Shown: positions 40,551 to 59,154 of the stretch, one piece after another
Layout: the number at the start of each line of letters is the position of its first letter
Numbering within the stretch: position 1 is the first letter of the stretch
Origin: an uncultured Roseobacter sp.
Lineage (GTDB): Bacteria > Pseudomonadota > Alphaproteobacteria > Rhodobacterales > Rhodobacteraceae
Direction: 5' to 3'
Assembly (NCBI RefSeq): GCF_947495025.1
Contig: NZ_CANLXG010000002.1
Coordinates: 994,124-1,058,123, forward strand
Length of the DNA: 64,000 bases
Position numbers and translations under genes: made by a program
Notes under the pieces: model-generated
What the model saw: only the letters and a program-made list of their open reading frames with translations
Told to the model about the DNA's origin: nothing
Database searches by the model: none

Positions 40551-40551
40551 A

Positions 40552-41544: not shown

Positions 41545-41550
41545 GCGTCC

Positions 41551-41988: not shown

Positions 41989-41991
41989 GGT

Positions 41992-42282
41992 TCATCCCCC
42001 GATGATCACAGTTGGCGCGCCCGCGACGATCACACCGCCATGTGCGGTTGTGTCCCCCATCCGGGCTGCCGGGCTGCCGCCGATCATCACCGTGGCCGAA
42101 CCTTTGGTGATTGAAGCCGTTGGTCCCACACAGACACAGTTATCGCCCTGGACCGCCGCCGGAAGGCCGACAATCAGTACAGTTGCCTCGCCGGGTCCCA
42201 CGATCGGTCCGCCTACATGAGGCACTACACCGTTCACTGCGGGACAGGTGTGCATATCGGTCAGTCTTGCTGCTGGTGGCAT
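41992..42282 (-). CDS. PAAR spike-tip protein (Afp10-like)
   Basis: PPAARLTD, GLPAAVQGD and GSPAARMGD repeats. Confidence 0.95.
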   Translation of the reverse strand: MPPAARLTDMHTCPAVNGVVPHVGGPIVGPGEATVLIVGLPAAVQGDNCVCVGPTASITKGSATVMIGGSPAARMGDTTAHGGVIVAGAPTVIIGG

Positions 42283-42314
42283 CCCCCCGGACCCCCTCTT
42301 GTTGTCTTGTCGTT

Positions 42315-44081
42315 TCAGTTAATCATCACAATCGAGCCCTCGACCGTGGTCTGCCCTCCGGACGACAGTTTGGCGGTCGCGTTGCCCTCGACCGTCAGTT
42401 CGGTCTGTGCCGTGCAGGTGATGTTCATGCCTTCGATGGTTGCATCCTGCGTGGCCTCTGCGGTGATGTTCTGCGTCGCCGTAATGGAAATGTCCTTGTC
42501 GGACGTGATGGCGATACCGCTGTCATCCATGACGATGGAATTGCCGTTCATGTCCTCCATGGAAAACGTGCTGGCGTCGTCATCCAGCGTCAGCGTATGC
42601 CCGCCCGGCGTGCTGACCGTGATGATCTTTTTGTCGTCGTCAAAGGTCATCCTGAGTTCCGAGCGGGTGGTGATTGTCTTGAGGTTATTGTCCTCTTCGG
42701 CGTCAATCGGCCGTGCCGCGGTTCCGTTGTGCAGTGAGCCGACAATGACCGGCGCTTCCGGATCAGCGTTCAGAAAGGCCACAACCACCTCGTCGCCCGT
42801 TTCGGGCAGAAACTGGATACCTGCCGCTGACGAGGCATAAGGCTGTGCATAGCGCGCCCAGACCTTTGCCGGCGGATCACCGACGAGGGGCAGTTCGATC
42901 TGGATGCGCAGCCGGGTATCGGGGTCTTCGGCCACGGTAAGGACCTTGCCGATCTGCAACCCGTGTATCGGCGCATTCATCGCCTCAGCGGCAGGGCTGG
43001 CAAAGCCCGTGCTGTCTGACGTCCAGTCCGGCGGCAGGCCCAGCCTGCACACCGTCAGCCAGGTGCCCGCCTCGATCCTGTGCTCGACAGAGACAGCATA
43101 TCCTGTGCCGCTGTAGCGTTCGCCAAAACCCTTGATTTCAAGGGTTTTGCCTGGTTCGATCATGTTGTTTCCCTGATAGGTGACAGAGCCCGAAACTGCC
43201 CCCAGACCTGCCCGCGTGGTCCGCGCCTTGCTCCGCGTGGTCAGCTCGGCAGATGCAACCGTTGCGGCGGTAAAGGCGGTATGCTCGCGGTCGCTGAGAA
43301 CTTCGGCGAGATTTGCGGCCGTGACATTGTCCGGTGTCAGCCCGGTCACAGTCGCAGAGGTGCCCGACACAGTTTCCTGTGTGGTGTCGTCCCAGGATGT
43401 CGCGCTGGCCGATTTGATCATGCGCTGGGAATCGATCTCGATGTCGAGCTCCAGAACATCAGCGCCCACGGTGACCTCCAGTGACACCGCCGCCGAGGTA
43501 TCCGGTGCTTTGACAGAAACCTTGCCTGCAATGACATTGACCACCAGGCCGTTGCGGTCCGCCAGCAGGCGCAGATAATCCCAGTCGGTTGTGCCTGCGC
43601 GCAGCTTGTCTGCTGCGGTATCCGTCGTGGCCTCCACATCCGCCGTCAGACCGGCATCGCCGATGATGTCAGATATGACGTCACTGTCCTTTTTCTCCTC
43701 ATAGCGCACCGACTTGCGGATTTCGGTCATCCCGATGGCCTTGTCGCGGCAATAAAGCTCAAGGCGCAGACCTGTATTGCTGTCGATCCTGGCACGGCTC
43801 GAAATAATCAGCCCCTTGAACAGCGTCTGATCCGCCCCGTCGCCGTAGAAGGCGGCGATCTCTATTTCCTTGCCCGCCACAAAGTCCGCAGCGTCGAGCT
43901 CATCAAAGTCATCCGTCTGCAGCGAACCGGACAAAATGGTGACCTGTGCCTCGGGGATACGGTTCAGACCGCTGCGGACCCGCACGGAGGCGATGAGTAT
44001 GTCGTCAGAGATCTGCGCCCCTTCGATCTTGACGGTGACCCCGACGGATCCTGTTGAACCTGTTTCCGGACTGTCAGCCAT
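42315..44081 (-). CDS. VgrG-like central spike protein (Afp8-like)
   Basis: LNRIPEAQV, TDWDYLRLLADRNG, gp5 OB-fold region QFLPETGDEVVVAFLNADP..PVIVGSLHN and C-terminal beta-repeats ending TTVEGSIVMIN. Confidence 0.92.
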   Translation of the reverse strand: MADSPETGSTGSVGVTVKIEGAQISDDILIASVRVRSGLNRIPEAQVTILSGSLQTDDFDELDAADFVAGKEIEIAAFYGDGADQTLFKGLIISSRARIDSNTGLRLELYCRDKAIGMTEIRKSVRYEEKKDSDVISDIIGDAGLTADVEATTDTAADKLRAGTTDWDYLRLLADRNGLVVNVIAGKVSVKAPDTSAAVSLEVTVGADVLELDIEIDSQRMIKSASATSWDDTTQETVSGTSATVTGLTPDNVTAANLAEVLSDREHTAFTAATVASAELTTRSKARTTRAGLGAVSGSVTYQGNNMIEPGKTLEIKGFGERYSGTGYAVSVEHRIEAGTWLTVCRLGLPPDWTSDSTGFASPAAEAMNAPIHGLQIGKVLTVAEDPDTRLRIQIELPLVGDPPAKVWARYAQPYASSAAGIQFLPETGDEVVVAFLNADPEAPVIVGSLHNGTAARPIDAEEDNNLKTITTRSELRMTFDDDKKIITVSTPGGHTLTLDDDASTFSMEDMNGNSIVMDDSGIAITSDKDISITATQNITAEATQDATIEGMNITCTAQTELTVEGNATAKLSSGGQTTVEGSIVMIN

Positions 44082-44087
44082 GATCCC

Positions 44088-44771
44088 TCACCTCATCGGC
44101 GGGAACCGCAGGAGCGTATTCGGCTCAAGGTCCCGGAAATTATCGAGATCGTTGTGGGCGGCGATTTCGAGGTATTTGCCTGCATCCTTGTAGATGCGGT
44201 GGCACAGCAGCGGCAGCGTGTCGCCGGTCTGAACACGAACGAGGTGCGTGAGGTCGGGCGAGCGTCGCTTTGCTTCCAGGGCTTCCTGGGCGGCAGTGCG
44301 CGCTTCGATGAAGTTCAGCTTTATTTTTGCCCGCAGGGCGGTGCCATCGGGATGAAACAGTGTGTAGTCAACCGACATTTCCGTAAGCCGGCCAAAGAAT
44401 TCTTTCAGTCCGTTGCCCCAGATAATTTTGACGGCCGTCGGTTCGTGTTCATCTCCGTCATAATCATAGCAGACGGTGCGCAGTTTATCGATCTGATCCG
44501 CTACGGGCTCAGTGGAGCCGGGCACGACGCCCGTTCCGTCGATGGTCAGTGAAAAGTTGAGCTTCTCCGGATCGGCCATGGAATACTTGGGAATTGCGCC
44601 GGACTTGCCGACAGCGCTGTCACCCTTGCCCATCGTACCGGTGTACTTCAGCGAATAGTTATGGCTGTAGTTTTCAGGGTTGATCGTTGCCTCAAAGGTG
44701 TTGGCATCACCACTTTTAGGCTCGATTTTACCCGACTGGATCGCACAGCGCACAATTTTCAGCTTGGCCAC
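44088..44771 (-). CDS. Tube initiator with C-terminal LysM domain (Afp7-like)
   Basis: INPENYSHNY, YTLFHPDGTALRAKIKLNF and LysM-like VQTGDTLPLLCHRIY...YLEIAAHNDL. Confidence 0.9.
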   Translation of the reverse strand: MAKLKIVRCAIQSGKIEPKSGDANTFEATINPENYSHNYSLKYTGTMGKGDSAVGKSGAIPKYSMADPEKLNFSLTIDGTGVVPGSTEPVADQIDKLRTVCYDYDGDEHEPTAVKIIWGNGLKEFFGRLTEMSVDYTLFHPDGTALRAKIKLNFIEARTAAQEALEAKRRSPDLTHLVRVQTGDTLPLLCHRIYKDAGKYLEIAAHNDLDNFRDLEPNTLLRFPPMR

Positions 44772-44774
44772 GGC

Positions 44775-44954
44775 TCAGCGCTCCCTGCCGCGGCGAGCCG
44801 CATCCGCCAGCCGATCGTCCATTTCGCGCAGCAGATCACGACGCATCATCTCAAGCGCCGTCTCCAGGTCTTCGCGTTGCTCCGCGGGCCGTGTGTCATC
44901 CCGCGCCGGACCAAAGCGCCCTTTCAGCACAAGCGTACCGATCTCGACCGCCAT
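44775..44954 (-). CDS. Small Afp6/DUF5908-like protein, 59 aa (below the ORF-track cutoff)
   Basis: Translated by hand: MAVEIGTLVLKGRFGPARDDTRPAEQREDLETALEMMRRDLLREMDDRLADAARRGRER*; TGATG overlap with the tube gene; occupies the afp6 position between afp5 and afp7. Confidence 0.8.
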   Translation of the reverse strand: MAVEIGTLVLKGRFGPARDDTRPAEQREDLETALEMMRRDLLREMDDRLADAARRGRER

Positions 44955-45409
44955 CAGACTGACCTCACCAGTGTGGTATAGGCCAGTTCAATTGTCTCAA
45001 CCGCCAGTTCATTTTTCATTGCGTCAAATCCCCCAACCGTCCATTTGACCGGATACGCGTTTCCGACGGTCCACACGGCCACCGGAATACGCTTTTCATT
45101 CAGCAACGACACCGTGATGTCCTTGGGCACGATGGCCTCGGCAAAATCGCCCTCGATGGTCGATTTGCACCACTGCACGAGACCACTGGCCTGGGTGGTC
45201 ATTCCGCGTTTCAGCTTGAGATTCCCGCGCTTTGCAGGTTTCGGAAGCTGATGCACGAAACGGTTTTCGCCACCCTCGACCACCGGCTCGGTTTCCAGGC
45301 TGCTTTCGAGCCCGGAAACCTCCTGAAACGCCATGTCGGGCACCGGTGGGACCATTCCCACGAACATGACCGAAAAATGAAACGCAACAGGAGGGCTGAG
45401 CAGGTCCAT
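44954..45409 (-). CDS. Tail tube protein 2 (Afp5-like)
   Basis: PPVAFHFSV, FQEVSGL, EGGENRFVHQLP, LKLKRG and NAYPVKWTVGGFDAMKNELAVETIELAY. Confidence 0.93.
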   Translation of the reverse strand: MDLLSPPVAFHFSVMFVGMVPPVPDMAFQEVSGLESSLETEPVVEGGENRFVHQLPKPAKRGNLKLKRGMTTQASGLVQWCKSTIEGDFAEAIVPKDITVSLLNEKRIPVAVWTVGNAYPVKWTVGGFDAMKNELAVETIELAYTTLVRSV

Positions 45410-45413
45410 ATGG

Positions 45414-45872
45414 TTACGCGTTCTCGATCACGAAACCTTCGTGTGCGATCTCGATGCTCTCCACCGCAACCTCATTGCCTTCGGCCTTGAGATCGGTGCT
45501 GGTCACCTTGACCGGGAAGGCATTCTGCACCTTCCAGACCATCGTGGGCGCCTGGGTTTCATCGAGCAGCGAAATAGTGATCGCCTTGCGCTTGATCACG
45601 TTCATCTGGATCTCGGCGAACCAGTCCCAGATCGCGTTATCCTGAATGAACACACCCTTCTTCATGGTGATATTCCCTGATTTGAGCATCCCGGGCATTT
45701 TCACCTTGGAGAACACCGGACTGTTGCCTGCGCGGTACTCCAGTACCTCGCTTTCGATATCCAGACCGGAGACTTCCTGAAAAGCCAGTTCCGTGTCGTC
45801 CCACTTTACCTGAAAGTGGAACTTGGGAAGCGGCCAGACCGCCGTTGTCTGGGCGGAGCCATCATCTGCCAT
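45414..45872 (-). CDS. Tail tube protein 1 (Afp1-like, T4 gp19 family)
   Basis: WPLPKFHFQV, FQEVSGL, KMPGMLKSGNITMKKG and NAFPVKVTSTDLKAEGNEVAVESIEIAHEG. Confidence 0.95.
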   Translation of the reverse strand: MADDGSAQTTAVWPLPKFHFQVKWDDTELAFQEVSGLDIESEVLEYRAGNSPVFSKVKMPGMLKSGNITMKKGVFIQDNAIWDWFAEIQMNVIKRKAITISLLDETQAPTMVWKVQNAFPVKVTSTDLKAEGNEVAVESIEIAHEGFVIENA

Positions 45873-45897
45873 GTTAAATGTCCTTCCTGTTCAAAAC

Positions 45898-48240
45898 TTA
45901 TGATTTCTGCATTTGTTGCTGGAACGTGATCTCGATGAATTCCGCCGGACGTGTCACGGCCACCAGGACGGTGATCAGCAGCTTGCCCTCAAGAATATCC
46001 ACCGGCGTCATCGTCTCGCCGAGGCCGACATGCACGCTGAACGCATCGGTAGGCACGGCACCCGCCAGACCGCCCGCTTTCCAGACCGAGGTCAGGAAGT
46101 TTTCGATCATCGACCGGATCGTGACCCAGGTCTGGGCTGTGTTCGGTTCAAAGACATAGGCCTTGGCCGCGAGCCGGATCGATTCCTCGATCATGATCAT
46201 GGTGCGGCGCACGTTGATGTAACGCCAGTCCAGGCTGTTGCCATCGAGCGTACGCGCGCCCCAGACGAGGGTCCCCTCACCAACGAACGGCCTGATCGCG
46301 TTGATCGATTTGCCCGTTGTGGAAACGTTGAGGTTTTCCTGCTGGCCGTGATCGATGTTGACCATCGGCCCGGTGACGCCGGCTACCGAAACGTTTGCGG
46401 GCGCTTTCCAGACACCCCGCGTGTTGTCGACGGCCGTATAGACGCCGGCCATGGCTGCCGCGGGTGGCATGACGTTCATATAGGCGGCGATGGCATTCAT
46501 CACGTCCGTATAGAGCGGCACGGTGGCCCGCATGGTTTTATCGATCGTGCTGGTCATCGGGTCTGGCGGTGGATTTTCGTCCACGACGCCATCGACGAGG
46601 ATCTTGATCTCTTTCGCCTCGGACAGTTCGCCGCCGACAACCAGTTTGTAACGGACGGCGGTTTCAGCGCCGCGGAACTCTGCGTTGGGGGCAAGCACGA
46701 TATCGGTGCCATCAACCGTCCAGACACCCACACCCTTGCGGGTTACGGTTTTGTCTTTCACGGCAGCCACAGCAGCGGCCTCTGCCTCTGCTACGGCGGT
46801 CTGCAGCGGAGCAAGATCCGCATCGTCAGCCGCGTCATTCAGTGCAGTGCGCGCGGTCTGTACCGCGTCCGAGGCGTTCTTGACGGCCACTTCGTCAACA
46901 GCATCGGCGCCCAGCAGAACCACGTCATCAATGGTTGTGCCTTCTTCGGCGACCGAGATCTTTACCGGCTTTTCCTTGACCACATCGGGCAGGCCGATCA
47001 CGTCAGAGCCGACAGAGACAACGATTGTCCGCGCGGAGGTTTTGACACCTTCGTTGTCGGTGACCACGAGCTCAAAGAAACCGCCGGACCCGTCGCTGCC
47101 ATTATGCACGAAACGGATCTTTCCGTCGTCGATGTCTTTTTGCGTAAAGGCAAAGACCGCATCGGCACCTGCGAGCGCTTCTGCGCCGGCGTTTTTGGCG
47201 CCGGTGACGATCTTGCCTTTCATCTGTGCCAGAACATCCGCCGGATCGCCCTCGATCTTGTACTGAAGCTCGGAGGCCTCTGCGAGGTCGTCGGCTGCGT
47301 TGATATCAGTACCTTTCAGCACGGAGATGCCGCCCCTGGTCACCGAGATGGTAAAGTCCCCTGTCACCACTGCAGTGCCGACCTTGAGGATTTCAGGCAC
47401 CAGCGCCTTGTCCATATTTACCGAGCGTTTGAGCAGCGAGATAAACTTGTTGCGGCTGCCCAGCTCTATGTTTTCAAAGGTAAAGTCGCGCGACTGGTAT
47501 ACCGCGCTGTCGAGCCAGGGATAGTAAGCCGCACCGTAGTCGAGGTAATTTGCGCCAACATCCATGCGGAACCGTGCGATCGGGTCGCCACGCGGGCTGC
47601 GTTCATCGAGGTAACCGCCATGTACGTCCAGAATGGCGAAACGGTTTTTCATCGTGTAACCGCAGTGCGCGAGCATCTGTTGCTGAACCTTGGCACCGTT
47701 CTGGCGGTTCAGGCGCGTTGTCTCGGGGATCACAACCATCGTCGGCTCTGGTTCTTTTTCCAGCCGCTTGATCGCTTTGAGCATTGCATCGGCGTCAATG
47801 GGGTCGCTGTAGGACCCGATTGAAGTGACGTAGCAGGTGCCGCCACCATTGAGAAAGAATGCCCGCATCGCCGAGTAAAGCGTATAGGCGGTGTTCGTCT
47901 GGATCAGTTCGAATTTTTCAGGACCCGCAGGTCCGTTGGCTGTAAAAACTGCCTGTGGCAGCTCGGCGGCTGCGGCCATGTCTGCATCTTCGCCATAGGG
48001 CTGGCCGGTTCGCTCCTCGAAAGGCTGCATTCTGAACACCGGCTCCGGAGCGCCGCCGAAATAGCCATGATACTCCGAGACCGAAGTGATCTTCATCGGC
48101 GTCTCGTGCAGGGAAACGTTCCCGTTCACCGCTTTTTCAGTATAGCCGATAAAGGCCGGAACTGCCGTTGCGACCTGCACGACAGAGTTGGGAAAGGCGC
48201 TCTTTTCGACAATGTAGACGCCGGGGGTTTTCATGACCAT
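45898..48240 (-). CDS. Tail sheath protein (Afp2/3/4-like) with large internal insertion
   Basis: MKTPGVYIVE, TAVPAFIGYTEK, YGAAYYPWL, PPAAAMAGVY...RGVWKAPAN, WGARTLDGNS.DWRYINVRRT and PAEFIEITFQQ; about 265 extra residues in the middle. Confidence 0.95.
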   Translation of the reverse strand: MVMKTPGVYIVEKSAFPNSVVQVATAVPAFIGYTEKAVNGNVSLHETPMKITSVSEYHGYFGGAPEPVFRMQPFEERTGQPYGEDADMAAAAELPQAVFTANGPAGPEKFELIQTNTAYTLYSAMRAFFLNGGGTCYVTSIGSYSDPIDADAMLKAIKRLEKEPEPTMVVIPETTRLNRQNGAKVQQQMLAHCGYTMKNRFAILDVHGGYLDERSPRGDPIARFRMDVGANYLDYGAAYYPWLDSAVYQSRDFTFENIELGSRNKFISLLKRSVNMDKALVPEILKVGTAVVTGDFTISVTRGGISVLKGTDINAADDLAEASELQYKIEGDPADVLAQMKGKIVTGAKNAGAEALAGADAVFAFTQKDIDDGKIRFVHNGSDGSGGFFELVVTDNEGVKTSARTIVVSVGSDVIGLPDVVKEKPVKISVAEEGTTIDDVVLLGADAVDEVAVKNASDAVQTARTALNDAADDADLAPLQTAVAEAEAAAVAAVKDKTVTRKGVGVWTVDGTDIVLAPNAEFRGAETAVRYKLVVGGELSEAKEIKILVDGVVDENPPPDPMTSTIDKTMRATVPLYTDVMNAIAAYMNVMPPAAAMAGVYTAVDNTRGVWKAPANVSVAGVTGPMVNIDHGQQENLNVSTTGKSINAIRPFVGEGTLVWGARTLDGNSLDWRYINVRRTMIMIEESIRLAAKAYVFEPNTAQTWVTIRSMIENFLTSVWKAGGLAGAVPTDAFSVHVGLGETMTPVDILEGKLLITVLVAVTRPAEFIEITFQQQMQKS

Positions 48241-48255
48241 GCTTCGGGTCCTCCT

Positions 48256-48990
48256 TTAAAAGATCGATACGTAAATGTCGGATTGGATCAGCGCGCCGGC
48301 CCCGTCGGGCGCAGGCACTGAGGTGAAAAGCGGCTGCGGTGCGGGCAGCACAGGAATGAGTGTGCGGGGGCCAAACGGTCCCGGGCGCGAGAGGCTGAAA
48401 CGCTGCAGCGGCCTGGCCCGTGCTGGCAGGGCGCTGCGCGTGCGGATGACGTGGGCGGGTGTTCCATCGGGCAGATCGACCGTGCCCAGCGGGTCAAATT
48501 CCACTTCACCCTCGCTGTCTTCGATAATCACTTCGTCACTGCCGGGACCTGTCACATGATAAGCCCAGTGAGAGGCGACAGCTTCGCAACGCAGCGTCAT
48601 GCGGCGCAGACTGCCGGGCACCAGACCGATGCTGACCTGAGCAAGTTTGCGGCTTGCCGCCGGCTGCGGCACCTCAGAGGGTCCTGCGGCACTGAGCAGC
48701 GCGTGATCAAGATGCCCGGGCAGGCCGATCTGCGGTACATACGTCCAGTCCGCCCCTTCGGTCAGTGCGATTACATCCGTGTTCTGTACATCCAGATCGA
48801 GTGACACGCTTTCGGGAAGATCGGTGTTATCTTCTTCTGCAACGATCAGCACCTTCGGGCCCATTTGCCGCAGCAGCAGACCCGCTTTGTCAAAACCGGC
48901 AGCATCACTCGGGCGAACGGTAACCGGGGGCATGTTTGGTGCGTAGTAATCGTGTTCCAGTCTCAGCTGCGCAATTGCCCCCCAGGTCAT
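48256..48990 (-). CDS. eCIS hypothetical protein, possible cap adaptor (Alg16B position)
   Basis: Lies between DUF4255 and the sheath; N-terminal LRLEHDYY...GLLLRQ pattern. Function inferred from position only. Confidence 0.5.
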   Translation of the reverse strand: MTWGAIAQLRLEHDYYAPNMPPVTVRPSDAAGFDKAGLLLRQMGPKVLIVAEEDNTDLPESVSLDLDVQNTDVIALTEGADWTYVPQIGLPGHLDHALLSAAGPSEVPQPAASRKLAQVSIGLVPGSLRRMTLRCEAVASHWAYHVTGPGSDEVIIEDSEGEVEFDPLGTVDLPDGTPAHVIRTRSALPARARPLQRFSLSRPGPFGPRTLIPVLPAPQPLFTSVPAPDGAGALIQSDIYVSIF

Positions 48991-49565
48991 CAGCTCGCCT
49001 CCGATGGTCTGGCTTCGCCACCCGGCGCCCGGATCAGCGGTGTGATCGACCGCACCGCGCCTGCGTCGATCATGACCGAGCGCATCTTGAACATAACAGA
49101 TGGTACGTAACGACCCCCAAGGTTGCCCCAGAGCTGTCCGACTTCCTCGACCTTCAGGTTCGAGATTTCGACGGTCAGCTGTGCGATACCTGCGGGCATT
49201 TCTGGCACCAGCTGGGGGGTCATCACCGGATTGGCCTGGAAAAACATCAGCGCCGCGGATATGAGCTTGAGCCCCTCGCCGTAGATTTCCGGATCGTGGC
49301 CCGAAGCGAGCATAAAATAGATGTCCAGATGGACTGGCGGTGCCATACCCATCTGCACCGCTGAACGTGGCCGGCTTCCGCGCGGAACCGAATCCTGTGC
49401 AATATTGGTCAGAAAAAGCGTCAGGCGGTTGCGCGATTCTGCTGTGGGTTTGCCCTCCGCATCCGACAGCGGGCCCACGGCGACCAGATCCTCTGACACA
49501 GCGAACAACGCGGACAGATGCGCGTTCAGCCGGTCGCTCACGAGGGTTAGGGCGTGATCAATCAC
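48990..49565 (-). CDS. DUF4255 cap/tail terminator protein (Afp16/Pvc16-like)
   Basis: PPVHLDIYFML, YGEGLKLISAALMFFQANP, LWGNLGGRYVPSVMFKMR; GTG start after an AGGAGG RBS. Confidence 0.92.
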   Translation of the reverse strand: MIDHALTLVSDRLNAHLSALFAVSEDLVAVGPLSDAEGKPTAESRNRLTLFLTNIAQDSVPRGSRPRSAVQMGMAPPVHLDIYFMLASGHDPEIYGEGLKLISAALMFFQANPVMTPQLVPEMPAGIAQLTVEISNLKVEEVGQLWGNLGGRYVPSVMFKMRSVMIDAGAVRSITPLIRAPGGEARPSEAS

Positions 49566-51996: not shown

Positions 51997-52796
51997 GAGG
52001 CCTCTGCACATATTCCGTAGCCCCAGCGCACCGGGCAGACGGGCGTCAGCAAACGATCGATCCAGCGTGCCAGTCCGTTGTGCAGTAACCAGCTTTCGGG
52101 CAATACGCTTTCACAACTCAGGCGCTCCAGCGCAAAACCGGCTGCTGTCAGCTCGCGTGTCAGTTTCTGTGGATCAAAAAGCTGGTAGTGCAACACCACG
52201 TCCTGTCCGTCGTCCGTGCGACGGCGGTAATGGACCAGCCCGTCGCGCGCGCTGTCTGTCTGTTCCGAGCGGAAACGTCGTGCGCGATTTGGAACAGAAA
52301 TGAGCAGGCGACCCGCCCCTGGTTTCAGCGCGGCCCGCATCCGGCCAAGCGCGTCAGCGCGTGCTGCCGGGTCCGTTATGTGCCCCAGAACGCCGAAAAG
52401 GCAGAGCACCAGATCGACCCGGCCAGACACCTCGATATAGTGATCAAGGTCGGTCGTTTCCGGTCCGATGACCGCCAGGTCGGTCCAGCCCGAAGCAGCG
52501 GCCCGGGCGCGTACTGTTTCCAGTGCCGCCGGGCTGACGTCAAACCCCGCCGCCCGTGAGACAAGGCCCTGGAGGCGCAGCAGATAGCGCCCGCTGCCGC
52601 AACCGAAATCCAGCACCGCCGCGTCGGGGCCGAGCAGATGCGTGATCCGGCGCCACATTGTCCTGTTCGGGCTGGGATAGCGTCTGTCATAGAATCCGGA
52701 TGTAAAATAGAGCTGATACGACGCGCGTGTGGTCGCGTCGCCCGGGGTCACCGGCGGCGTGTCCGCGTCGGGTTTTTCTGTCTCGTGGACGGTCAA
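51990..52796 (-). CDS. Class I SAM-dependent methyltransferase
   Basis: VLDFGCGSGRYL, GFDVSPAAL and DLVLCLFGVLGHI motifs. Confidence 0.85.
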   Translation of the reverse strand: MTVHETEKPDADTPPVTPGDATTRASYQLYFTSGFYDRRYPSPNRTMWRRITHLLGPDAAVLDFGCGSGRYLLRLQGLVSRAAGFDVSPAALETVRARAAASGWTDLAVIGPETTDLDHYIEVSGRVDLVLCLFGVLGHITDPAARADALGRMRAALKPGAGRLLISVPNRARRFRSEQTDSARDGLVHYRRRTDDGQDVVLHYQLFDPQKLTRELTAAGFALERLSCESVLPESWLLHNGLARWIDRLLTPVCPVRWGYGICAEASC

Positions 52797-54085
52797 TTCG
52801 GGCTGACGCTGCCGGTACCCAACACGTCCTCCAGCCGCTTGCGCCAGTCGCGGTTCCGCATCTGTCGAATGAGCGCCCGGTCAATCTGGCGTCGCAGATC
52901 TTCGGACACGGACGTATGCGAAATACCCCAGCCATAAGGCTCATTGCGATAGACATTTGGCAGGACGGCGATCTTGCCTTCGTAAGTATCCTGACGGCTC
53001 AGGTAAGTCAGGGCGATCCAGTCACCCAGCACGGCGTCCACCTCATCTTTGGCCAGAAGGTTGGCAGCCTGCCGCCAGCTGCTGACGAGGCGCACACCGC
53101 CGGCCAGTGCAGGATCATCGTCGACGGTAATGTCTTCCCGCTCGGGGTCTTCCGGATTGCAGACCAGCTGGTTGACACGACGATCCAGCGCGGACGCCAC
53201 GTCTGACCCGGGTTCAGTGTCGCTTTTGAGTTTGCCGTATTCGGTCAGCAACAACGCCTGAGCCGTCGAGCAATCCAGCGTGGCGATGGTCATATTGGTA
53301 AGTTCAGATGCGGGAACTTTTTGCTGCGCGCCGACAGAACCTACAAAGGCCGAGGTCAGAACGCCCAGCAGGGTTGCCGAGAGTGCCGTACCGACGACGG
53401 CCAGAAAGATTTCCAGCACTTTGGCGACCGCGGTCGAATATCCGTCTCCGACGCCCCGCAGCCCGATGGTCCGGATGATCGACTCCAGCAGCGATCGCAG
53501 CCACAGAGACGTGCGCCCGCCGGGATCGTTTTCCTTTGCAAACAGCAGCCAGCGGATGAGGAACGCCATGATCAGGTTAAAGGTCAGAAAGAGCAGAACC
53601 GCCTGGGCGACCGTAGGGTGCAGAATGGTTTCAGACACAATCTTCCTGGCCTGCGTAAAATCGATTGCATTCGACGGCGGCAAAGCCAGAGCCAGCCCCG
53701 ATGACAGGTACTGCTGGGAGAAATCATAGGATTCCATGCGCTGGGACGTGATTGTCAGAGGTGCTATGACGACGTCTATCCGGCCGGATACCAGCCCGAC
53801 TTCCTGACCGTCGATTGTGTTGCACGCAACAAAGGTCACTTCGGGTGCTACCGAGCGGCCTACATCGTCCAGCACAAACAGCGATCTCTCGACACGGCGC
53901 CAGAGGTCATAGGCAAAACCGGCCGGTGCGCCGGAACTGTCAAAGAAGGAAAAAGGTTCCGCGTTGTCGCGCAACGCTACCACAATATCTCCGCCCGGAC
54001 GGACCTGCGGGCATGCGTGTGCGGAAGGTGCAAAGCCGGTGACTGCGCTGACGAGCACTGAGAACAGGAGCAATGCGCGGATCAT
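52793..54085 (-). CDS. Prokaryotic ionotropic glutamate-receptor-like protein (split SBP domain + TM1-pore-TM2)
   Basis: S1: AEPFSF...GFAYDLW...DVVIAPLTITSQRMESYDFSQQY; TM1; pore-like SIIRTIGLRGVGDG; TM2 ending LTSAFV; S2: DAVLGDWIALTYL...EPYGWGI. Confidence 0.75.
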   Translation of the reverse strand: MIRALLLFSVLVSAVTGFAPSAHACPQVRPGGDIVVALRDNAEPFSFFDSSGAPAGFAYDLWRRVERSLFVLDDVGRSVAPEVTFVACNTIDGQEVGLVSGRIDVVIAPLTITSQRMESYDFSQQYLSSGLALALPPSNAIDFTQARKIVSETILHPTVAQAVLLFLTFNLIMAFLIRWLLFAKENDPGGRTSLWLRSLLESIIRTIGLRGVGDGYSTAVAKVLEIFLAVVGTALSATLLGVLTSAFVGSVGAQQKVPASELTNMTIATLDCSTAQALLLTEYGKLKSDTEPGSDVASALDRRVNQLVCNPEDPEREDITVDDDPALAGGVRLVSSWRQAANLLAKDEVDAVLGDWIALTYLSRQDTYEGKIAVLPNVYRNEPYGWGISHTSVSEDLRRQIDRALIRQMRNRDWRKRLEDVLGTGSVSPN

Positions 54086-54318: not shown

Positions 54319-56826
54319 ATGAGAATACGTGAGGCTCAGAGATACCGGCAGCAGTCTGCGGGTCCCTCAGCCGCCCGACCCGCGCCGGTCCCGCAGGATG
54401 GACCAGGTCTGTCCGGTCTGCGGGCCGCGGCAGATCTCAGCCACCCCCGCCAGCAAACGTCAGCGCTTCAGGCGCGCGCGCGCGGGCACAATGCCACCGG
54501 CGCCCGGCCTGCAGTACCGGTTATGCAACGCGCCGCCGTGATCCCCTATGACACGTGGAAGTCACGCAGCACCAAGGCCGGCATGAAGCGTTCGGAACTG
54601 CTGTTGCGGATCGATGAGGCACTCATCCTGTATCAGGCCTCTGTGTTTCTTGACGTCAAAACGCAAAAGACCCGGCTGCAGGCGCTGAGCAGAAGGATCA
54701 ACGCCTGGATCGGATCGAAGAACGCGAAATATGCCAGCAAGAAGCGTAATTCGCGCCGCATGAAAGAGGTGCAGGACCTTAAAGATCAGGTGGATGCCAA
54801 ACAGATTGAGCTGAACAATGTGCCGGACGACAACCCGGATGTTGGCAAAAGAACGATTTTTACATTCGACGTTTACAACCGCATCCGCCTGCGCGTGCAG
54901 CAGATCATGTCTGTCCCGCCGAGGGATATTGAAACCGCGACGGCTGAAAAGATGGTGTCGGGCCTTGCAGAGATGCGTGAGCAGGTGCGCGATATCGACG
55001 GCTACCACGACCCTGTAACGGCGATCTGGGATGCCTGTTCTGTCATGATCGCGCTGGGGGAAACACGTCTGAATGTCGCGGTGGCGGCGAAGACGCGCAG
55101 GAGGCATCCCCGCCCCGTCCCGCTGGAGCGTTATAAGTCACGGTACCGCCGTCATTATGCCCGCGCCGAAGCGCAGATCGCTGCCCAGAACGATACGGGC
55201 CATACCGTTGCGCCGCACGTGCTGGCCTCAATGCAGAAGACGCGTGAGGATGTGGCTCTTTATTCTTCTGTCGCGGGCAAGGGTGATGGCGCAGAGGCGG
55301 ATTTTGATCTGCCCGAAGGGTTCGAGGACTCGATGGACCTCGCTGGTGAGGCCATGAACGCGCTGGGCATGCAGGGCACGGGCGGCGTCGGAAACGAGGG
55401 CCTTGAAGACTACTGGAAGACCACAATTCCAGAAGGTGAATCCGAACAGAAGACCGCAGCCAAACAGATGGCGGCTACCATCATGGGCGGGTTGCACAGT
55501 GCCATTGAGGACGACCCCGGTGCCATGGACAAGGTATCGGGCGGCGCGGATATCGGTGCGAGCGCGGTGATGAGCGTCAGGCTGGGGGCCGAACTGGGCC
55601 GGCTGTTTGCCATTGTCTCTGACTGTAACCGGCGGCTGAAAACAGACCCCGGGAACAGCAAGCTGAAGGCAAAGCGCCGAAAGGCCATCGCAGAACTGAC
55701 CTTTCTGTCGACTGTTGGCACCACCGAAATGCTGGGAAAGTACCTGGGCGGCGCCTTCACCGCGATGCGGGGGGACGGGCACAAATTCGACTCCAACATG
55801 TTCAGCAGTGACAGCACGGATGTCAGCACCGACATGAAGCTGACGGGTGATGCCGCGGGCGTGGTCCTCGGCGCCGTGAACAGCGTCAAAGACATTGTAA
55901 ACATGTGCAAGAATATCTTTGCCCGTGCGAAGCCGGTCAAAAACGACAGTAAATCGCTGGGTGAGCATGGTCAGGATCTGTTCGATTCCGTGCACGAGAT
56001 TGCCGGTGCGACCAACAGCGTGGCGAAATCCTATTCGGCCGTGCGCAAACTCTACGAGCAGATCGCGGCGGGCGGACAGATTGCCTCTGAAAATGCCGGT
56101 GCTGTGTCCGATGTAGTGCGCGGCACTGTCAATAATGTGCCTGTTATCCCCGTGCTCGGCCTGATCAAAGGCTGTATGGATTTTGTGAGCGAGGGCATCA
56201 AACTGGCCCGCACCGGTCACGCTGCGCACAAGGCCAAAGCGATGGGCAAAAAGCTCACCGCACAGTTCAGTGAACCGCTTTACCTTGCGTTTGTTGTCAC
56301 CAGAGACAAATTCGTAAAGCAGATCAACCGGGCAATCATTGATCTCATCCACGCGGCCGCCTCTATTACATCCGGTGCTCTGTCGGTCAGTGGACTGGGT
56401 GCCGGGATCGGTGCGGCCATCGGAATGGTATCTCTCGCGGCCAAACTGACACAGACCGGTATCCGCAAATTTAAACAGCATCGACGTGATAAAAAAGGCG
56501 GCGAAGAAACCAACCTGGAAAAGGCCGCAGCAACAGCGGATGGCGAAGAATTCGTCAATCACGCGCTGTTGCTCACTCAGGAAAAACTGGCCGGCAAGAA
56601 AAAGCGCGGACGCTATAACCTCGACAAGACCACCGCCAACAAAGAGTTCCGGTATAATTTTGCGGCGATGGAAATCCTCCGTGCACCGGAAGAAGAGCGC
56701 AAATGGTTCTTTGATGCACTGAACATACGTCGGGATGTTCAGCGGATCGAAAACAACGACACACCTGGCTTTAACAAAGAACAGGCCAAAATGGCGCTGA
56801 TCATCAAAAGCCTCAAGGAAAGGTAG
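54319..56826 (+). CDS. Putative eCIS cargo/toxin protein
   Basis: About 835 aa; low-complexity leader ending VMQR, then a 4-helix membrane-localisation-like segment and Gly/Ala-rich hydrophobic helices; divergent from the eCIS operon and followed by chaperone-like and DUF4157 genes. Start placed at ATG 54319. Confidence 0.6.
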   Translation: MRIREAQRYRQQSAGPSAARPAPVPQDGPGLSGLRAAADLSHPRQQTSALQARARGHNATGARPAVPVMQRAAVIPYDTWKSRSTKAGMKRSELLLRIDEALILYQASVFLDVKTQKTRLQALSRRINAWIGSKNAKYASKKRNSRRMKEVQDLKDQVDAKQIELNNVPDDNPDVGKRTIFTFDVYNRIRLRVQQIMSVPPRDIETATAEKMVSGLAEMREQVRDIDGYHDPVTAIWDACSVMIALGETRLNVAVAAKTRRRHPRPVPLERYKSRYRRHYARAEAQIAAQNDTGHTVAPHVLASMQKTREDVALYSSVAGKGDGAEADFDLPEGFEDSMDLAGEAMNALGMQGTGGVGNEGLEDYWKTTIPEGESEQKTAAKQMAATIMGGLHSAIEDDPGAMDKVSGGADIGASAVMSVRLGAELGRLFAIVSDCNRRLKTDPGNSKLKAKRRKAIAELTFLSTVGTTEMLGKYLGGAFTAMRGDGHKFDSNMFSSDSTDVSTDMKLTGDAAGVVLGAVNSVKDIVNMCKNIFARAKPVKNDSKSLGEHGQDLFDSVHEIAGATNSVAKSYSAVRKLYEQIAAGGQIASENAGAVSDVVRGTVNNVPVIPVLGLIKGCMDFVSEGIKLARTGHAAHKAKAMGKKLTAQFSEPLYLAFVVTRDKFVKQINRAIIDLIHAAASITSGALSVSGLGAGIGAAIGMVSLAAKLTQTGIRKFKQHRRDKKGGEETNLEKAAATADGEEFVNHALLLTQEKLAGKKKRGRYNLDKTTANKEFRYNFAAMEILRAPEEERKWFFDALNIRRDVQRIENNDTPGFNKEQAKMALIIKSLKER

Positions 56827-56833
56827 ACCATCA

Positions 56834-57367
56834 GTGGCAACGCCCGAAGAGATGGCAGATGCACTGGACAGGGCAGGATTGCGCCCCGTGCTGACAGACT
56901 GCGCGCCGGAGCCCTATCATATCGCGGTTCCGTTCCCCGATCAGAGTGTCGAGGAAGAGCCGGTTCTGCGGATCAACCTGCTTGCTTCCGCAGATGGGGA
57001 TCTTGAACTGTGGCAGTTTATTTCGGTCATCCCGGCGCAGGCGGTGTCCGACCGGGCGTGGGCGCTGGTGCGCAACATGCTGAACACGGTGAACCTGTCA
57101 CTGACAGTTGGCAAAGTGCTGGCGATCGAAGACGAACAGATGATCTATTTCAGCTGCAATCATCTGGCCCCGCCCGGAGACAGCGCACTGAAGAGCGGCC
57201 CGCCAGTGGCGCACTTTATTCTGGAGAATCTGGTGGTGCTTACTCCGGCGCTGGTTGACGCGCTGAGTACCGATCCGCCGCCTGATTTCGGCGCTGCAGA
57301 AAGGGTGTTGGATGAAACGCACAAGGCTTTGAGCGAACTCGCAGAGGCAATTTCAACTGAGAGGTGA
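56834..57367 (+). CDS. CesT/YbjN-like chaperone or immunity protein
   Basis: 177 aa, acidic; LNTVNLSLTVGKVLAIEDEQMIYF resembles the YbjN/CesT N-x-x-x-x-x-G-K-x-x-x-D core; 7 bp after the cargo stop. Confidence 0.5.
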   Translation: MATPEEMADALDRAGLRPVLTDCAPEPYHIAVPFPDQSVEEEPVLRINLLASADGDLELWQFISVIPAQAVSDRAWALVRNMLNTVNLSLTVGKVLAIEDEQMIYFSCNHLAPPGDSALKSGPPVAHFILENLVVLTPALVDALSTDPPPDFGAAERVLDETHKALSELAEAISTER

Positions 57368-57419
57368 AAAGCTCTCTGAAATGTGCCAGGATAGCTCGCA
57401 TACCGAAAAGGACGTAACT

Positions 57420-58151
57420 ATGGCTCAGATATTCGCATCGGAACGCAGTCAGGTCAGCACCTCTGCCGCCAAATCCGGCAGAGGAAGTGGCGACACTGCT
57501 CCCGAACTGGTGCTTGCTGATCTTCAGAGCGATGCGGACCGGAGTGCCGCAACAGGGCGTCTTGCGCAGATGCAGAGCCGCGAGCGTGGTCCGGCACAGC
57601 GTATGGAGGAGGAAGAGCTGCAGGGCAAATTTATTGGTGAGCCGGCCCAGCGAATGGAGGAAGAAGAGGCTTTGCAGGGTAAGTTTACCGGCGACACGGT
57701 CCAGCGGATGGAAGAAGAGGAACTGCAGGGCAGGTTTGCTGAAAAGCCGGCCCAGCGGATGGACGAAGAAGAAGCGCTCCAGGGTAAGTTCGCCGCAGCA
57801 CCCGTTCAGCGCACAGAGGACGGCGGCGGGATGCCTGCGGGTCTGAAGGCAGGTGTTGAAAGCCTTTCCGGGATGGCGATGGACGACGTAAAAGTACATT
57901 ATAACTCGTCAAAGCCCGCGGCGCTGCAGGCGCATGCCTATGCGCAGGGCACCGATATTCACCTCGGCCCCGGGCAGGAGAAACACCTGGGCCATGAAGC
58001 CTGGCACGTCGCTCAGCAGAAACAGGGCCGGGTCAAACCCACGATGGAAATGGGCGGCACGCCTGTGAATGATGATGCGGGTCTGGAAAGCGAGGCCGAC
58101 ACGATGGGTGCCAAAGCCGCTCAGATGGCGTCAAAGGATCCGGAGACCTGA
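57420..58151 (+). CDS. DUF4157 (eCIS core) domain protein without C-terminal toxin domain
   Basis: MPAGLKAGVESLSGMAMDDVKVHYNSSKPAALQAHAYAQGTDIHLGPGQEKHLGHEAWHVAQQKQGRVKPT, the canonical DUF4157 with HExxH; start placed at MAQIF. Confidence 0.92.
   Translation: MAQIFASERSQVSTSAAKSGRGSGDTAPELVLADLQSDADRSAATGRLAQMQSRERGPAQRMEEEELQGKFIGEPAQRMEEEEALQGKFTGDTVQRMEEEELQGRFAEKPAQRMDEEEALQGKFAAAPVQRTEDGGGMPAGLKAGVESLSGMAMDDVKVHYNSSKPAALQAHAYAQGTDIHLGPGQEKHLGHEAWHVAQQKQGRVKPTMEMGGTPVNDDAGLESEADTMGAKAAQMASKDPET
57591..57812 (+). repeat. Four in-frame tandem repeats of (P/T)(A/V)QRM(E/D)EEE(A)LQG(K/R)F
   Basis: Units of 17, 18, 17 and 18 aa, visible in DNA as repeated CAGCGxATGGAxGAxGAAGAG, followed by a partial PVQR. 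Confidence 0.9.
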
Positions 58152-58865: not shown

Positions 58866-58866
58866 G

Positions 58867-59154
58867 TCAGAAGCGGAGGTAGTTTGGTCCTGCACTCTGT
58901 TTCCTTTCAGCCAGCCCGTCGGCATTAAACACTGACACGATGTTCAGCAAGGTCCAGCCCTGCGCGGAAAGACGCGCAGAAAGCTCTGCTCTTGCGGCCT
59001 GCTTCGAACACTGTGAGATCTCGGCCACGCCATAGTGCAGCCGCAGCGGGTTATCCTGTTTGGCTTTGTAATCAGCATAGCAGTCGGCAGCCTGAACGAC
59101 GTTGCCGATGCATATCGCGATGGTCAGCACAAAGATGAGAGCGGTCTGTTTCAT
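58867..59154 (-). CDS. Conserved-looking secreted hypothetical protein
   Basis: Signal peptide MKQTALIFVLTIAICIGNVVQA, then DCYADYKAKQDNPLRLHYGV; stop 1 bp from the next start. Confidence 0.7.
   Translation of the reverse strand: MKQTALIFVLTIAICIGNVVQAADCYADYKAKQDNPLRLHYGVAEISQCSKQAARAELSARLSAQGWTLLNIVSVFNADGLAERKQSAGPNYLRF

What the first reader, a model, noticed from the sequence alone, without database searches (positions are those of the whole stretch)
54409..57590. Shared ungapped 26-aa N-terminal motif in two cargo-cassette proteins: candidate loading signal
Seen: the toxin has LSGLRAAADLSHPRQQTSALQARARG (residues 31-56, nt 54409-54486) and the DUF4157 protein has LADLQSDADRSAATGRLAQMQSRERG (residues 32-57, nt 57513-57590). 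They align without gaps with 9 identities (LxxLxxxADxS-x9-QxRxRG), start at nearly the same residue, follow a disordered N-terminus and precede a P(x)xQR motif. The proteins are otherwise unrelated. Known: PVC cargoes are loaded through N-terminal leader regions with Pvc15 involvement. Inference: this is the packaging signal of this eCIS, usable to find more effectors and to load custom cargo. Residue numbering depends on my start-codon choices.
Basis: partly seen in the sequence, partly recalled or inferred. Interest (0 to 1): 0.82.

Follow-up and report, generated by a model that had tools for sequence, protein, structure and literature searches.

The report
Shared N-terminal tag on eCIS cargo
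Two unrelated proteins next to a phage-tail-like injection machine in a marine Roseobacter share a conserved 60-residue N-terminal tag that also marks several scattered proteins and occurs almost only in genomes that have this machine, so it is most likely the address label that loads cargo into the particle.

Summary
As a single pair it is weak: shuffle p is about 0.01 to 0.1, and BLASTP finds nothing. Profiles show it is real.

It is the core of a ~60-aa N-terminal module: a basic disordered head, a predicted helical hairpin L-x2-LQ-x2-A-[DN]-x-S-x5-L-x2-[LMV]Q, then a hydrophobic-x-QR boundary.

- **More carriers:** a profile finds three more at genome-wide significance, and one borderline, among housekeeping genes elsewhere in this genome. 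Reversed and shuffled decoys give no hits.
- **Modular:** in related genomes the module sits on at least 11 unrelated C-terminal families.
- **Tied to the eCIS:** in the genus, 22 of 23 module-positive genomes have the eCIS cap gene. Across 301 genera of the family, the four confident positives are the four with the closest eCIS ATPase.
- **Widespread:** an iterated profile reaches the "DNRPE..QRKLQEMANNSP" N-termini of DUF4157 proteins in other phyla, where DUF4157-less carriers end in EndoU, GH-E or WHH nuclease toxin domains.

The best reading is a cargo-loading sequence of the AlgoCIS Cgo type. Loading itself is inferred, not shown. One genome has the tag but no detectable eCIS.

The parts
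54319..56826 (+).
   Evidence: It has no Pfam or NCBIfam hit. Eight orthologues of 39-88% identity keep the N-terminus.
54319..54531 (+). N-terminal module of the effector (residues 1-71): basic head, hairpin motif, then ...PVMQR boundary
   Evidence: The HMM match covers the whole 61-position model, E = 3.8e-10. hhalign to the DUF4157-family N-termini gives E = 6.5e-5.
54409..54486 (+).
56834..57367 (+). 177-aa acidic protein with a type III secretion class-I chaperone / YbjN-like fold, probably an effector-specific chaperone
   Evidence: AlphaFold2 mean pLDDT is 89.4. Foldseek against the PDB hits SicP, YbjN, SpcU, CesT and VecA with probability 0.99-1.0. It always lies between the effector gene and the DUF4157 gene. 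Only 13 homologues were found.
57420..58151 (+). 243-aa stand-alone DUF4157 (Pfam 'eCIS core domain') protein: N-terminal module, acidic repeats, DUF4157 with HEAWH
   Evidence: PF13699, E = 2.7e-10. More than 4400 relatives were found across phyla.
57420..57602 (+). N-terminal module of the DUF4157 protein (residues 1-61): MAQIFASER head, hairpin, PAQR boundary
   Evidence: HMM E = 2.3e-20. In the AlphaFold2 model residues 1-23 have pLDDT below 50, and helices 28-40 and 43-55 have pLDDT 70-77.
57513..57590 (+).
57591..57812 (+). Four acidic repeats xQRMEEEE(A)LQGKF, predicted disordered. The first repeat starts at the QR boundary of the module.
   Evidence: The sequence is. pLDDT is below 50 for residues 57-116. 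The repeats are conserved in other phyla.
57831..58028 (+). DUF4157 / eCIS_core domain with the HExxH motif
   Evidence: H192, E193 and H196 are invariant in alignment A4.
28820..30163 (-). eCIS AAA+ ATPase (447 aa), candidate reader of the module
   Evidence: PF00004 and AAA_lid_3. Its four closest homologues among 301 genera are in the four module-positive genomes.
25506..49565 (-). eCIS structural operon in AlgoCIS-like order: cap, 244-aa protein, sheath, two tube genes, CIS_tube, spike, baseplate genes, tape measure, ATPase, 1105-aa protein
48990..49565 (-). Cap gene (Pvc16_N), used here as the eCIS marker
   Evidence: PF14065, E = 1.6e-28.
52793..54085 (-). SBP_bac_3 / ligand-gated-channel-like gene, a conserved neighbour of the cassette
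   Evidence: The same gene lies beside the cassette in L022 and between the cassette and the cap gene in L023.

Best explanation
The shared motif is the core of a ~60-residue N-terminal module that marks proteins as cargo of this AlgoCIS-like eCIS.

Anatomy (shown): a basic, disordered head of about 25 residues; a predicted helix-turn-helix L-x2-LQ-x2-A-[DN]-x-S-x5-L-x2-[LMV]Q, with the invariant A-D-x-S at the turn; then a hydrophobic-x-QR boundary, usually followed by acidic residues. After that comes any of many unrelated C-terminal bodies.

Mechanism (inferred by analogy with AlgoCIS and PVC): during particle assembly the module is recognised by a conserved part of the machine. The most likely reader is the lineage-specific N-terminal domain of the 447-aa AAA+ ATPase (window 28820-30163), which would engage the disordered head and feed the protein into the tube lumen.

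The 835-aa protein is a cargo with its own CesT/YbjN-like chaperone. The small DUF4157 protein carries the same tag and is therefore a co-loaded cargo or accessory. Three or four further tagged proteins elsewhere in the genome would be orphan cargo.
For: **The motif is real.**
- Profile-profile E = 6.5e-5 and 5e-7.
- Conservation is at protein level, not DNA level.
- The hairpin is an island of predicted helix in a disordered N-terminus.

**The module is attached to unrelated proteins.**
- A 61-position HMM was run against all 46,130 stop-to-stop ORFs of the genome. Besides the two window proteins it hits the N-termini of C6:23268-24431, C3:448165-448656 and C4:160548-161579, at E = 2.5e-4 to 1.3e-3.
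- The DUF4157-only HMM also finds the first two of these, at E = 6e-3.
- A sixth ORF, C2:514392-515522, is borderline (E = 0.04-0.08).
- The best reversed or shuffled decoy reaches only E = 0.12-1.5.
- The C-terminal parts of 44 carriers fall into 11 BLAST clusters.

**The module is linked to the eCIS.**
- The cassette sits between two eCIS sub-operons in a Tara scaffold.
- The tagged DUF4157 gene lies 3-6 kb from the cap gene in at least 13 genomes of the genus.
- The genus-level table is 22 (module and cap), 1 (module only), 2 (cap only), 9 (neither). Fisher p = 1e-5, though related genomes are not independent.
- Among 301 genera of the family, the four confident module-positive genomes all carry the cap gene (29/301 do). 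They are exactly the four with the highest-scoring ATPase homologue, at 56-68% identity.

**It looks like a toxin-trafficking domain.** In other phyla, homologous N-termini without DUF4157 precede EndoU, GH-E and WHH/colicin-DNase domains, directly beside a tagged DUF4157 gene.

[quoted passage not shown] DUF4157 is dispensable, and the ATPase Alg15 is needed (bioRxiv 10.64898/2026.05.27.728243, PMC8894135).
Against: - No experiment here shows loading.
- One 99%-complete genome of the genus (G310) has six tagged ORFs and two tagged DUF4157 proteins, but no detectable cap, ATPase or tube gene.
- Two genomes of the genus carry a cap gene but no module match. Their ATPases are only 43% identical or match in the AAA domain alone.
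- The DUF4157-only HMM does not retrieve the window's own effector at E < 4, and the toxin-only HMM does not retrieve the DUF4157 protein. This particular pair is linked only through profile-profile comparison and the distant orthologues.
- Effector and DUF4157 N-termini from the same genome are not more alike than pairs from different genomes (604 of 720 permutations reach the observed score).
- The association with the ATPase lineage would hold equally for any other co-inherited eCIS part, so the reader of the tag is not identified.
Confidence: 0.72

Rival explanations
1. The module is a pro-region or docking site for the DUF4157 metallopeptidase-like protein, not for the particle. DUF4157 would bind or cleave tagged proteins at the hydrophobic-x-QR boundary for maturation, release or inactivation. 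The link to the eCIS would then be indirect.
For: - The QR boundary is among the most conserved elements of the module (Q invariant in A2, 41/49 in the wider set).
- That boundary motif is repeated four times ahead of the DUF4157 domain.
- The HExxH residues are invariant in alignment A4.
- G310 keeps both tagged proteins and DUF4157 proteins without a detectable eCIS.
- Tagged toxins lie directly beside tagged DUF4157 genes in several phyla.
Against: - In AlgoCIS the N-terminal domain is required for loading, while DUF4157 is dispensable.
- Cgo1 toxicity does not depend on the metalloprotease motifs.
- The DUF4157 protein carries the tag itself, which fits a fellow passenger better than a processing enzyme.
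- No cleavage has been reported.
Confidence: 0.13
2. The module acts after delivery or inside the producer, for example in targeting within the recipient cell, self-association of cargo, or keeping cargo inactive. It would play no part in loading.
For: - It is a short predicted helical hairpin, which could bind many kinds of partner.
- Nothing here identifies what reads it.
Against: - It is always at the extreme N-terminus behind a disordered basic head. This is the layout of the experimentally defined PVC, Afp and AlgoCIS loading sequences.
- It is shared by proteins with very different bodies, including nucleases in other phyla. Those proteins would not be expected to need one common destination in a target cell.
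Confidence: 0.08
3. The match is a chance resemblance between two low-complexity, Ala/Gln/Arg-rich disordered N-termini, or a signal for some other export route.
For: - The single pair is only marginal (p about 0.01 to 0.1).
- BLASTP sees nothing.
Against: - Reversed and shuffled decoys of the whole ORF set give no hit below E = 0.12, while real hits reach 1e-4 to 1e-20.
- The iterated search gave no decoy hits in ten rounds.
- All hits are N-terminal.
- A39 is invariant in 49 distinct sequences.
- The module has no hydrophobic core or twin-arginine pattern of the kind Sec or Tat signals have (sequence).
Confidence: 0.02

Closest known systems
AlgoCIS cargo loading sequence: N-terminal domain of Cgo1 and Cgo2, Algoriphagus machipongonensis (PMC8894135; bioRxiv 10.64898/2026.05.27.728243)
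   Same: - The eCIS has the same layout, with a short cap gene first, followed by a second small gene where AlgoCIS has its cap adaptor.
- The cargo proteins of one system share a disordered N-terminal domain.
- DUF4157 follows that domain.
- A single AAA+ ATPase is encoded in the operon.
- An Algoriphagus species (L109) has a homologous 'DxRPET.VQ..F..LVNS' N-terminus on both a DUF4157 protein and the adjacent EndoU toxin.
   Different: - Here one carrier has no DUF4157 at all, and the other has DUF4157 but no C-terminal effector body.
- Further carriers are scattered among housekeeping genes.
- A defined sequence signature is visible, whereas the preprint stresses disorder and reports no conservation between systems.
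- I did not see the Cgo1 and Cgo2 sequences, so whether they belong to this module family is untested.
PVC and Afp N-terminal signal peptides (Pdp1, Pnf, Afp18; PMC9054023, PMC11495950, bioRxiv 10.1101/2023.11.13.566157)
   Same: - An N-terminal, hydrophilic, disordered leader of 20-50 residues directs otherwise unrelated payloads into the tube.
- Loading depends on the operon's AAA+ ATPase.
   Different: - No conserved sequence has been found in those leaders (PMC11297309).
- Pvc15 is a larger ATPase with two AAA domains.
[quoted passage not shown]
- Here the cassette is transcribed divergently, upstream of the cap gene.
T6SS effector marker domains (MIX, FIX, RIX) and the N-terminal trafficking domains of polymorphic toxins
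   Same: - A short conserved N-terminal module is fused to many unrelated toxin bodies.
- The genes are partly 'orphan', lying far from the machine's own genes.
- The module can be used as a search handle for new effectors.
   Different: - The machine is different, and there is no sequence relationship.
- The module here is much shorter and largely disordered.
Type III secretion effector plus class-I chaperone pairs (SptP-SicP, ExoU-SpcU, Tir-CesT)
   Same: The 177-aa gene directly behind the effector gene is predicted to have this chaperone fold.
   Different: - There is no type III system in the locus.
- The chaperone accompanies only this one effector family (13 homologues), whereas the tag occurs on many proteins with no such neighbour.
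- The chaperone is therefore not the general reader of the tag.

Membership tests
eCIS N-terminal cargo-loading sequence, AlgoCIS Cgo type | Lies at the extreme N-terminus and is predicted to be largely disordered | tested here: met
   All HMM matches begin within the first ~30 residues of the ORFs from their likely starts. In the AlphaFold2 model residues 1-23 have pLDDT below 50, and only the hairpin reaches 70-77.
eCIS N-terminal cargo-loading sequence, AlgoCIS Cgo type | Shared by different cargo proteins of one system whose C-terminal parts differ | tested here: met
   This genome has five carriers (a sixth is borderline) with unrelated bodies. Across relatives the C-terminal parts form 11 clusters.
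eCIS N-terminal cargo-loading sequence, AlgoCIS Cgo type | Encoded in or beside an eCIS gene cluster and confined to genomes that have the system | tested here: met
   Supported. There is one exception, G310.
eCIS N-terminal cargo-loading sequence, AlgoCIS Cgo type | Followed by a DUF4157 domain (optional according to the PROCIS preprint) | tested here: inconclusive
   Present in the 243-aa protein. Absent from the 835-aa protein and from the orphan carriers.
eCIS N-terminal cargo-loading sequence, AlgoCIS Cgo type | Necessary for loading into the tube lumen, sufficient for at least some foreign cargo, and dependent on the AAA+ ATPase | not testable with these tools
   This needs particle purification with mass spectrometry, and reporter fusions.
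eCIS N-terminal cargo-loading sequence, AlgoCIS Cgo type | Sequence homology to the N-terminal domains of Cgo1 and Cgo2 themselves | not tested
A different Algoriphagus species has a homologous module.
PVC-type signal peptide | [quoted passage not shown] | tested here: not met
   The ATPase is 447 aa with a single AAA domain. The cassette is divergent and upstream of the cap gene. I did not compare the leader sequences themselves.
Type III secretion class-I chaperone / YbjN fold (the 177-aa protein) | Small acidic alpha/beta protein with the chaperone fold, encoded next to its effector | tested here: met
   pLDDT 89.4. Foldseek hits SicP, SpcU, CesT, VecA and YbjN with probability 0.99-1.0, TM-score 0.4-0.7, E = 6e-4 to 1e-2. 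Binding to the effector is untested.

The most novel reading that the evidence does not exclude
The Roseobacter motif is the local form of one ancient N-terminal module with a recognisable sequence: [FL]-x-[FL]-x-D-N-R-P-E ... Q-R-K-L-Q-x-M-A-N-N-S-P ... Q-L-K-x-x-Q ... hydrophobic-x-Q-R.

On this reading the module tags cargo of AlgoCIS-like, DUF4157-associated eCIS across Bacteroidota, Proteobacteria and Acidobacteriota, whether or not the cargo carries DUF4157.

If so, eCIS cargo of this large clade does have a sequence signature, contrary to the current view that leaders share only disorder. Clade-specific profiles could then list complete effector sets, including orphan genes far from the locus.
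Probability: 0.55. Interest if true: 0.85.

Novelty: new member of a known kind. Interest (0 to 1): 0.72.

Why it matters
Finding eCIS effectors is hard. Current predictors rely on gene position, DUF4157 and bulk N-terminal properties such as hydrophilicity and disorder, and the literature states that no conserved sequence has been detected in the leaders (PMC11297309; the PROCIS preprint).

In this lineage a sequence profile of the leader picks out a short list of otherwise unannotated proteins with no decoy hits at the same threshold. Some of them lie far from the locus among housekeeping genes, where position-based methods cannot see them.

This has three consequences:
- It gives a testable list of cargo for a marine Roseobacter eCIS whose target is unknown.
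- It points to specific residues for mutagenesis: the A-D-x-S turn, the L..LQ face of the first helix, and the QR boundary.
- If the wider reading holds, it gives a general handle for effector discovery and for understanding what the ATPase recognises.

Tried and rejected
- **Pairwise tests.** BLASTP of the two proteins shows nothing. Shuffle tests of the single pair are only marginal. The claim therefore cannot rest on the pair alone.
- **Reciprocal single-family HMMs.** The DUF4157-only profile does not retrieve the window's effector at E < 4, and the toxin-only profile does not retrieve the DUF4157 protein. The link needs profile-profile comparison, the distant toxin orthologues, or a joint profile.
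- **Recent DNA duplication or an RNA-level element.** Rejected: nucleotide identity is 37/78, and codons differ at 7 of the 9 identical residues.
- **Co-variation within genomes.** For six effector and DUF4157 N-terminus pairs, same-genome pairs are no more alike than cross-genome pairs (604/720 permutations reach the observed score). This gives no support either way.
- **Function of the carriers.** Pfam and NCBIfam give nothing for the effector, the orphan carriers, or nine carriers from relatives. No library model covers the module.
- **The chaperone as general reader of the tag.** Rejected, because it has only 13 homologues and all accompany the one effector family.
- **The G310 exception.** I looked for cap, ATPase, tube and DUF4157 genes and inspected three regions. 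No eCIS genes were found, and one DUF4157 gene sits on a 4.8-kb contig. I could not decide between loss of the system and an assembly gap.
- **Borderline family-level hits.** G061, G111 and G130 (E about 0.008) are treated as noise. About three such hits are expected from 301 searches at E <= 0.01, and two of them lie in 34-43 aa frames.
- **Searches not run.** I did not send N-terminal fragments of database proteins to the 1.84-billion-protein search, because its rules admit only whole returned proteins or the window's own sequence.

Full report
**Setting**

The window comes from a Roseobacter genome; the closest database proteins are named Roseobacter sp.. An extracellular contractile injection system (eCIS) operon occupies 49565 down to 25506 on the minus strand. 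Its genes, in order, are:
- cap (Pvc16_N)
- a 244-aa gene
- sheath with a cadherin-like insert
- two gp19-type tube genes
- CIS_tube
- VgrG-like spike
- baseplate genes
- tape measure
- a 447-aa AAA+ ATPase with a single AAA domain
- a 1105-aa protein

A cap-first order, with a short cap followed by a second small gene, is the AlgoCIS arrangement (PMC8894135).

Upstream, on the same strand, lie permease, substrate-binding and methyltransferase genes (49739-54085). Diverging from these is a three-gene cassette:
- an 835-aa protein with no family hit (54319-56826)
- a 177-aa protein (56834-57367)
- a 243-aa DUF4157 protein (57420-58151; Pfam now calls the domain 'eCIS core domain')

**The observation**

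On its own the match is weak. With the two N-terminal 100 residues shuffled, 10% of shuffles reach 9 identities at any offset, and about 1% do when the offset is held to 3 or fewer. BLASTP of the two proteins reports nothing better than E = 0.77, and not this region. The pair is suggestive and no more.

**Families make it real**

The effector has eight orthologues at 39-88% identity. The DUF4157 protein has thousands of relatives. A Roseobacter-type subgroup of these begins MAQIFAS[ED]R ... APExALAGLQxxADxSxATxRLxQ[LM]Q ... xQR.

The close effector orthologues keep GLSxLxxxADLSxxRQxxxxLQARA ... V.QR. The distant ones read ...IFARRR ... ALQQKANASQHVARLNGFQKHVVQR, which resembles the DUF4157-protein N-terminus over its whole length.

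For the distant group it gives E = 5e-7 (probability 92%, 55 columns).

In 49 distinct N-termini the most conserved columns are A39 (49/49), S42 (47), L32 (45), Q36 (42), L48 (42), L35 (41), D40 (41), Q60 (41), Q52 (40), R9 (37) and R61 (36). Identical residues mostly use different codons, so selection acts on the protein.

AlphaFold2 on the DUF4157 protein, with 30 aligned homologues, gives:
- residues 1-23 disordered
- two helices, 28-40 and 43-55, at pLDDT 70-77, with A-D-x-S at the turn
- residues 57-116 (the acidic repeats) disordered
- a confident DUF4157 domain

The unit is therefore about 60 residues: a basic disordered head, a helical hairpin, and a hydrophobic-x-QR boundary that is usually followed by acidic residues.

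I built a 61-position HMM of the module and ran it, with all filters off, over all 46,130 stop-to-stop ORFs of the genome. Besides the two window proteins it hits three ORFs:
- C6:23268-24431 (382 aa)
- C3:448165-448656 (154 aa)
- C4:160548-161579 (342 aa)

These score E = 2.5e-4 to 1.3e-3. Each match lies at the N-terminus. Those in the C6 and C3 ORFs end in V.QR, and the C4 ORF reads VVQL at that point. A profile made from DUF4157 proteins alone still finds the first two, at E = 6e-3. After adding the new sequences, a sixth ORF (C2:514392-515522) reaches E = 0.04. The best hit in reversed or shuffled copies of the ORF set is E = 0.12-1.5.

The three orphan carriers have no Pfam domain. They sit beside SecY, IleRS and UvrB/RadC genes. 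So the profile hits are not random proteins.

One caveat applies. Neither single-family HMM retrieves the other window protein.

**Link to the eCIS**

*Synteny.* In a Tara Oceans scaffold the order is effector, 176-aa gene, DUF4157, SBP_bac_3, cap, sheath, tube and onward on one strand, diverging from the baseplate genes. The cassette is therefore inside the locus. Effector, 177-aa gene and DUF4157 also stay together in another genome.

*Family level (301 genera, one genome each).* Confident module matches occur in four genomes besides this one. The cap gene occurs in 29 of the 301, and all four are among them. Ranked by similarity to this window's ATPase, the same four genomes take the top four places by score (56-68% identity). 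The next five full-length homologues (44-57%) lack a match at E <= 0.01, and the remaining genomes match in the AAA domain only. The DUF4157 proteins of those next five carry degenerate versions of the motif.

*Genus level (34 genomes).*

| | cap gene present | cap gene absent |
|---|---|---|
| module present | 22 | 1 |
| module absent | 2 | 9 |

Fisher p = 1e-5, with the warning that related genomes are not independent. There are up to eight carriers per genome, some in tandem arrays. The tagged DUF4157 gene lies 3-6 kb from the cap gene in at least 13 genomes.

*The exception.* G310 has six tagged ORFs and two tagged DUF4157 proteins of 904 and 968 aa, but no detectable cap, ATPase or tube gene. 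This remains unexplained.

**Modularity**

The C-terminal parts of 44 carriers fall into 11 BLAST clusters: the DUF4157 family, one large family that includes this genome's C6 orphan, the effector family, and eight singletons. None of nine carriers tested has a Pfam domain.

**Beyond the family**

I fetched 78 loci around small DUF4157 proteins from many phyla, including Methanosarcina. I then iterated the Roseobacter profile over their 4,051 ORFs. Hits grew from 2 to 33 ORFs in ten rounds, with no decoy hit in any round.

The recruited N-termini are of the type F.F.DNRPE..QRKLQEMANNSPQ..QLKAFQ...IQR. Their LQ.MA[ND].SP ... QL..Q part aligns with the Roseobacter LQ..AD.S ... L..LQ.

Eight of the 33 ORFs lack DUF4157 by a sequence-pattern check. 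Pfam scans of seven of them also found no DUF4157 domain. Three of the eight end in known toxin domains:
- EndoU, in an Algoriphagus species
- GH-E (HNH nuclease family), in a Flavobacterium
- WHH / colicin-DNase, in a Cellvibrio

In the Algoriphagus locus the tagged DUF4157 protein and the tagged EndoU toxin are adjacent genes and share 'D.RPET.VQ..F..LVNS'. This is the same pattern as in the window. Neither Pfam nor NCBIfam has a model for the module.

**The middle gene**

The 177-aa protein is predicted with pLDDT 89.4. Its best structural matches are type III secretion class-I chaperones (SicP, SpcU, CesT, VecA, SigE) and YbjN. It has only 13 homologues, and those whose contigs could be compared lie beside effector or DUF4157 orthologues. 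It is therefore probably an effector-specific chaperone and not the general reader of the tag.

**Mechanism**

*Shown:* a conserved N-terminal module sits on unrelated proteins and is tied to one eCIS lineage.

*Inferred:* the module is the loading sequence. The inference rests on precedent:
- In AlgoCIS, Cgo1 and Cgo2 fill the tube lumen (PMC8894135).
- Their shared disordered N-terminal domain is required for loading.
- DUF4157 and the C-terminal domain are dispensable.
- The N-terminal domain together with DUF4157 loaded beta-lactamase and Cre into particles, but not sfGFP or mCherry.
- The ATPase Alg15 is needed (PROCIS preprint).
- PVC and Afp leaders behave similarly.

The most likely reader of the tag is the ATPase, whose N-terminal 190 residues are lineage-specific. 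Any other co-inherited part of the machine would fit the data equally well.

The main rival is that the QR boundary and the module serve the DUF4157 metallopeptidase-like protein, through processing or docking. The G310 case and the repeated QR motifs give this some weight. The AlgoCIS results argue against it.

**Verdict**

- It is a new member of the known class of eCIS N-terminal loading sequences, closest to the AlgoCIS type.
- Unlike published leaders, it has a clear sequence signature, and it already yields three to four further cargo candidates in this genome.
- The wider reading, that this is one ancient sequence-defined tag across DUF4157-associated eCIS, is plausible, but it rests on an iterated profile over a limited sample.

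Noticed in passing
window 52793-54085 (-); L022 480-1772; L023 13791-15020: An SBP_bac_3 / ligand-gated-channel-like protein (409-430 aa) lies next to the cargo cassette in three genomes. In the Tara scaffold it sits directly between the DUF4157 gene and the cap gene on the same strand, so it looks like a conserved part of this eCIS locus.
   Followed up: partly
window 56834-57367 (+): The 177-aa protein between the effector and DUF4157 genes has a confident type III secretion class-I chaperone / YbjN fold (pLDDT 89; matches to SicP, SpcU, CesT, VecA). An effector-chaperone pair of this kind inside an eCIS locus is unusual.
   Followed up: yes
window 57591-57812 (+): The acidic repeats xQRMEEEE(A)LQGKF between the tag and DUF4157 are predicted to be disordered. 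Even so, they are conserved almost letter for letter in Cellvibrio, Bacteroidota, Burkholderiales and Methanosarcina small DUF4157 proteins (50-70% identity over most of the protein). Such conservation of a disordered repeat is unexplained.
   Followed up: partly
G310 (same genus): C15:27707-30241, C49:299460-302363, C51:811-3522: This 99%-complete genome has six tagged ORFs, including a tandem array of three, and two tag-DUF4157-CTD proteins of 904 and 968 aa. No cap, ATPase or gp19-type tube gene was detected. Either the machine was lost and the cargo kept, or the assembly has a gap.
   Followed up: partly
G322:C9:170692-173169; G323:C1:3427774-3428939; G310:C15: Two or three tagged genes of the same C-terminal family lie head to tail, which suggests diversifying cargo islands away from the eCIS.
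   Followed up: no
window 58191-58925 (-): A 244-aa ORF directly after the cassette has a hydrophobic N-terminal region (possible membrane segments) and a weak match to the OmpR-type winged-helix DNA-binding domain at its C-terminus (Trans_reg_C, E = 0.005, below the curated cut-off). It may be a membrane-anchored regulator of the locus.
   Followed up: no
L110, L123, L137, L142 (Methanosarcina / Methanosarcinales contigs): Archaeal genomes encode small DUF4157 proteins 51-59% identical to the Roseobacter one over about 150-190 residues. This is very high conservation across domains of life.
   Followed up: no
window 48256-48990 (-): A 244-aa gene with no Pfam hit follows the short cap gene. 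This is the position of the AlgoCIS cap adaptor Alg16B, and a 254-aa gene occupies the same position in the Tara scaffold.
   Followed up: no
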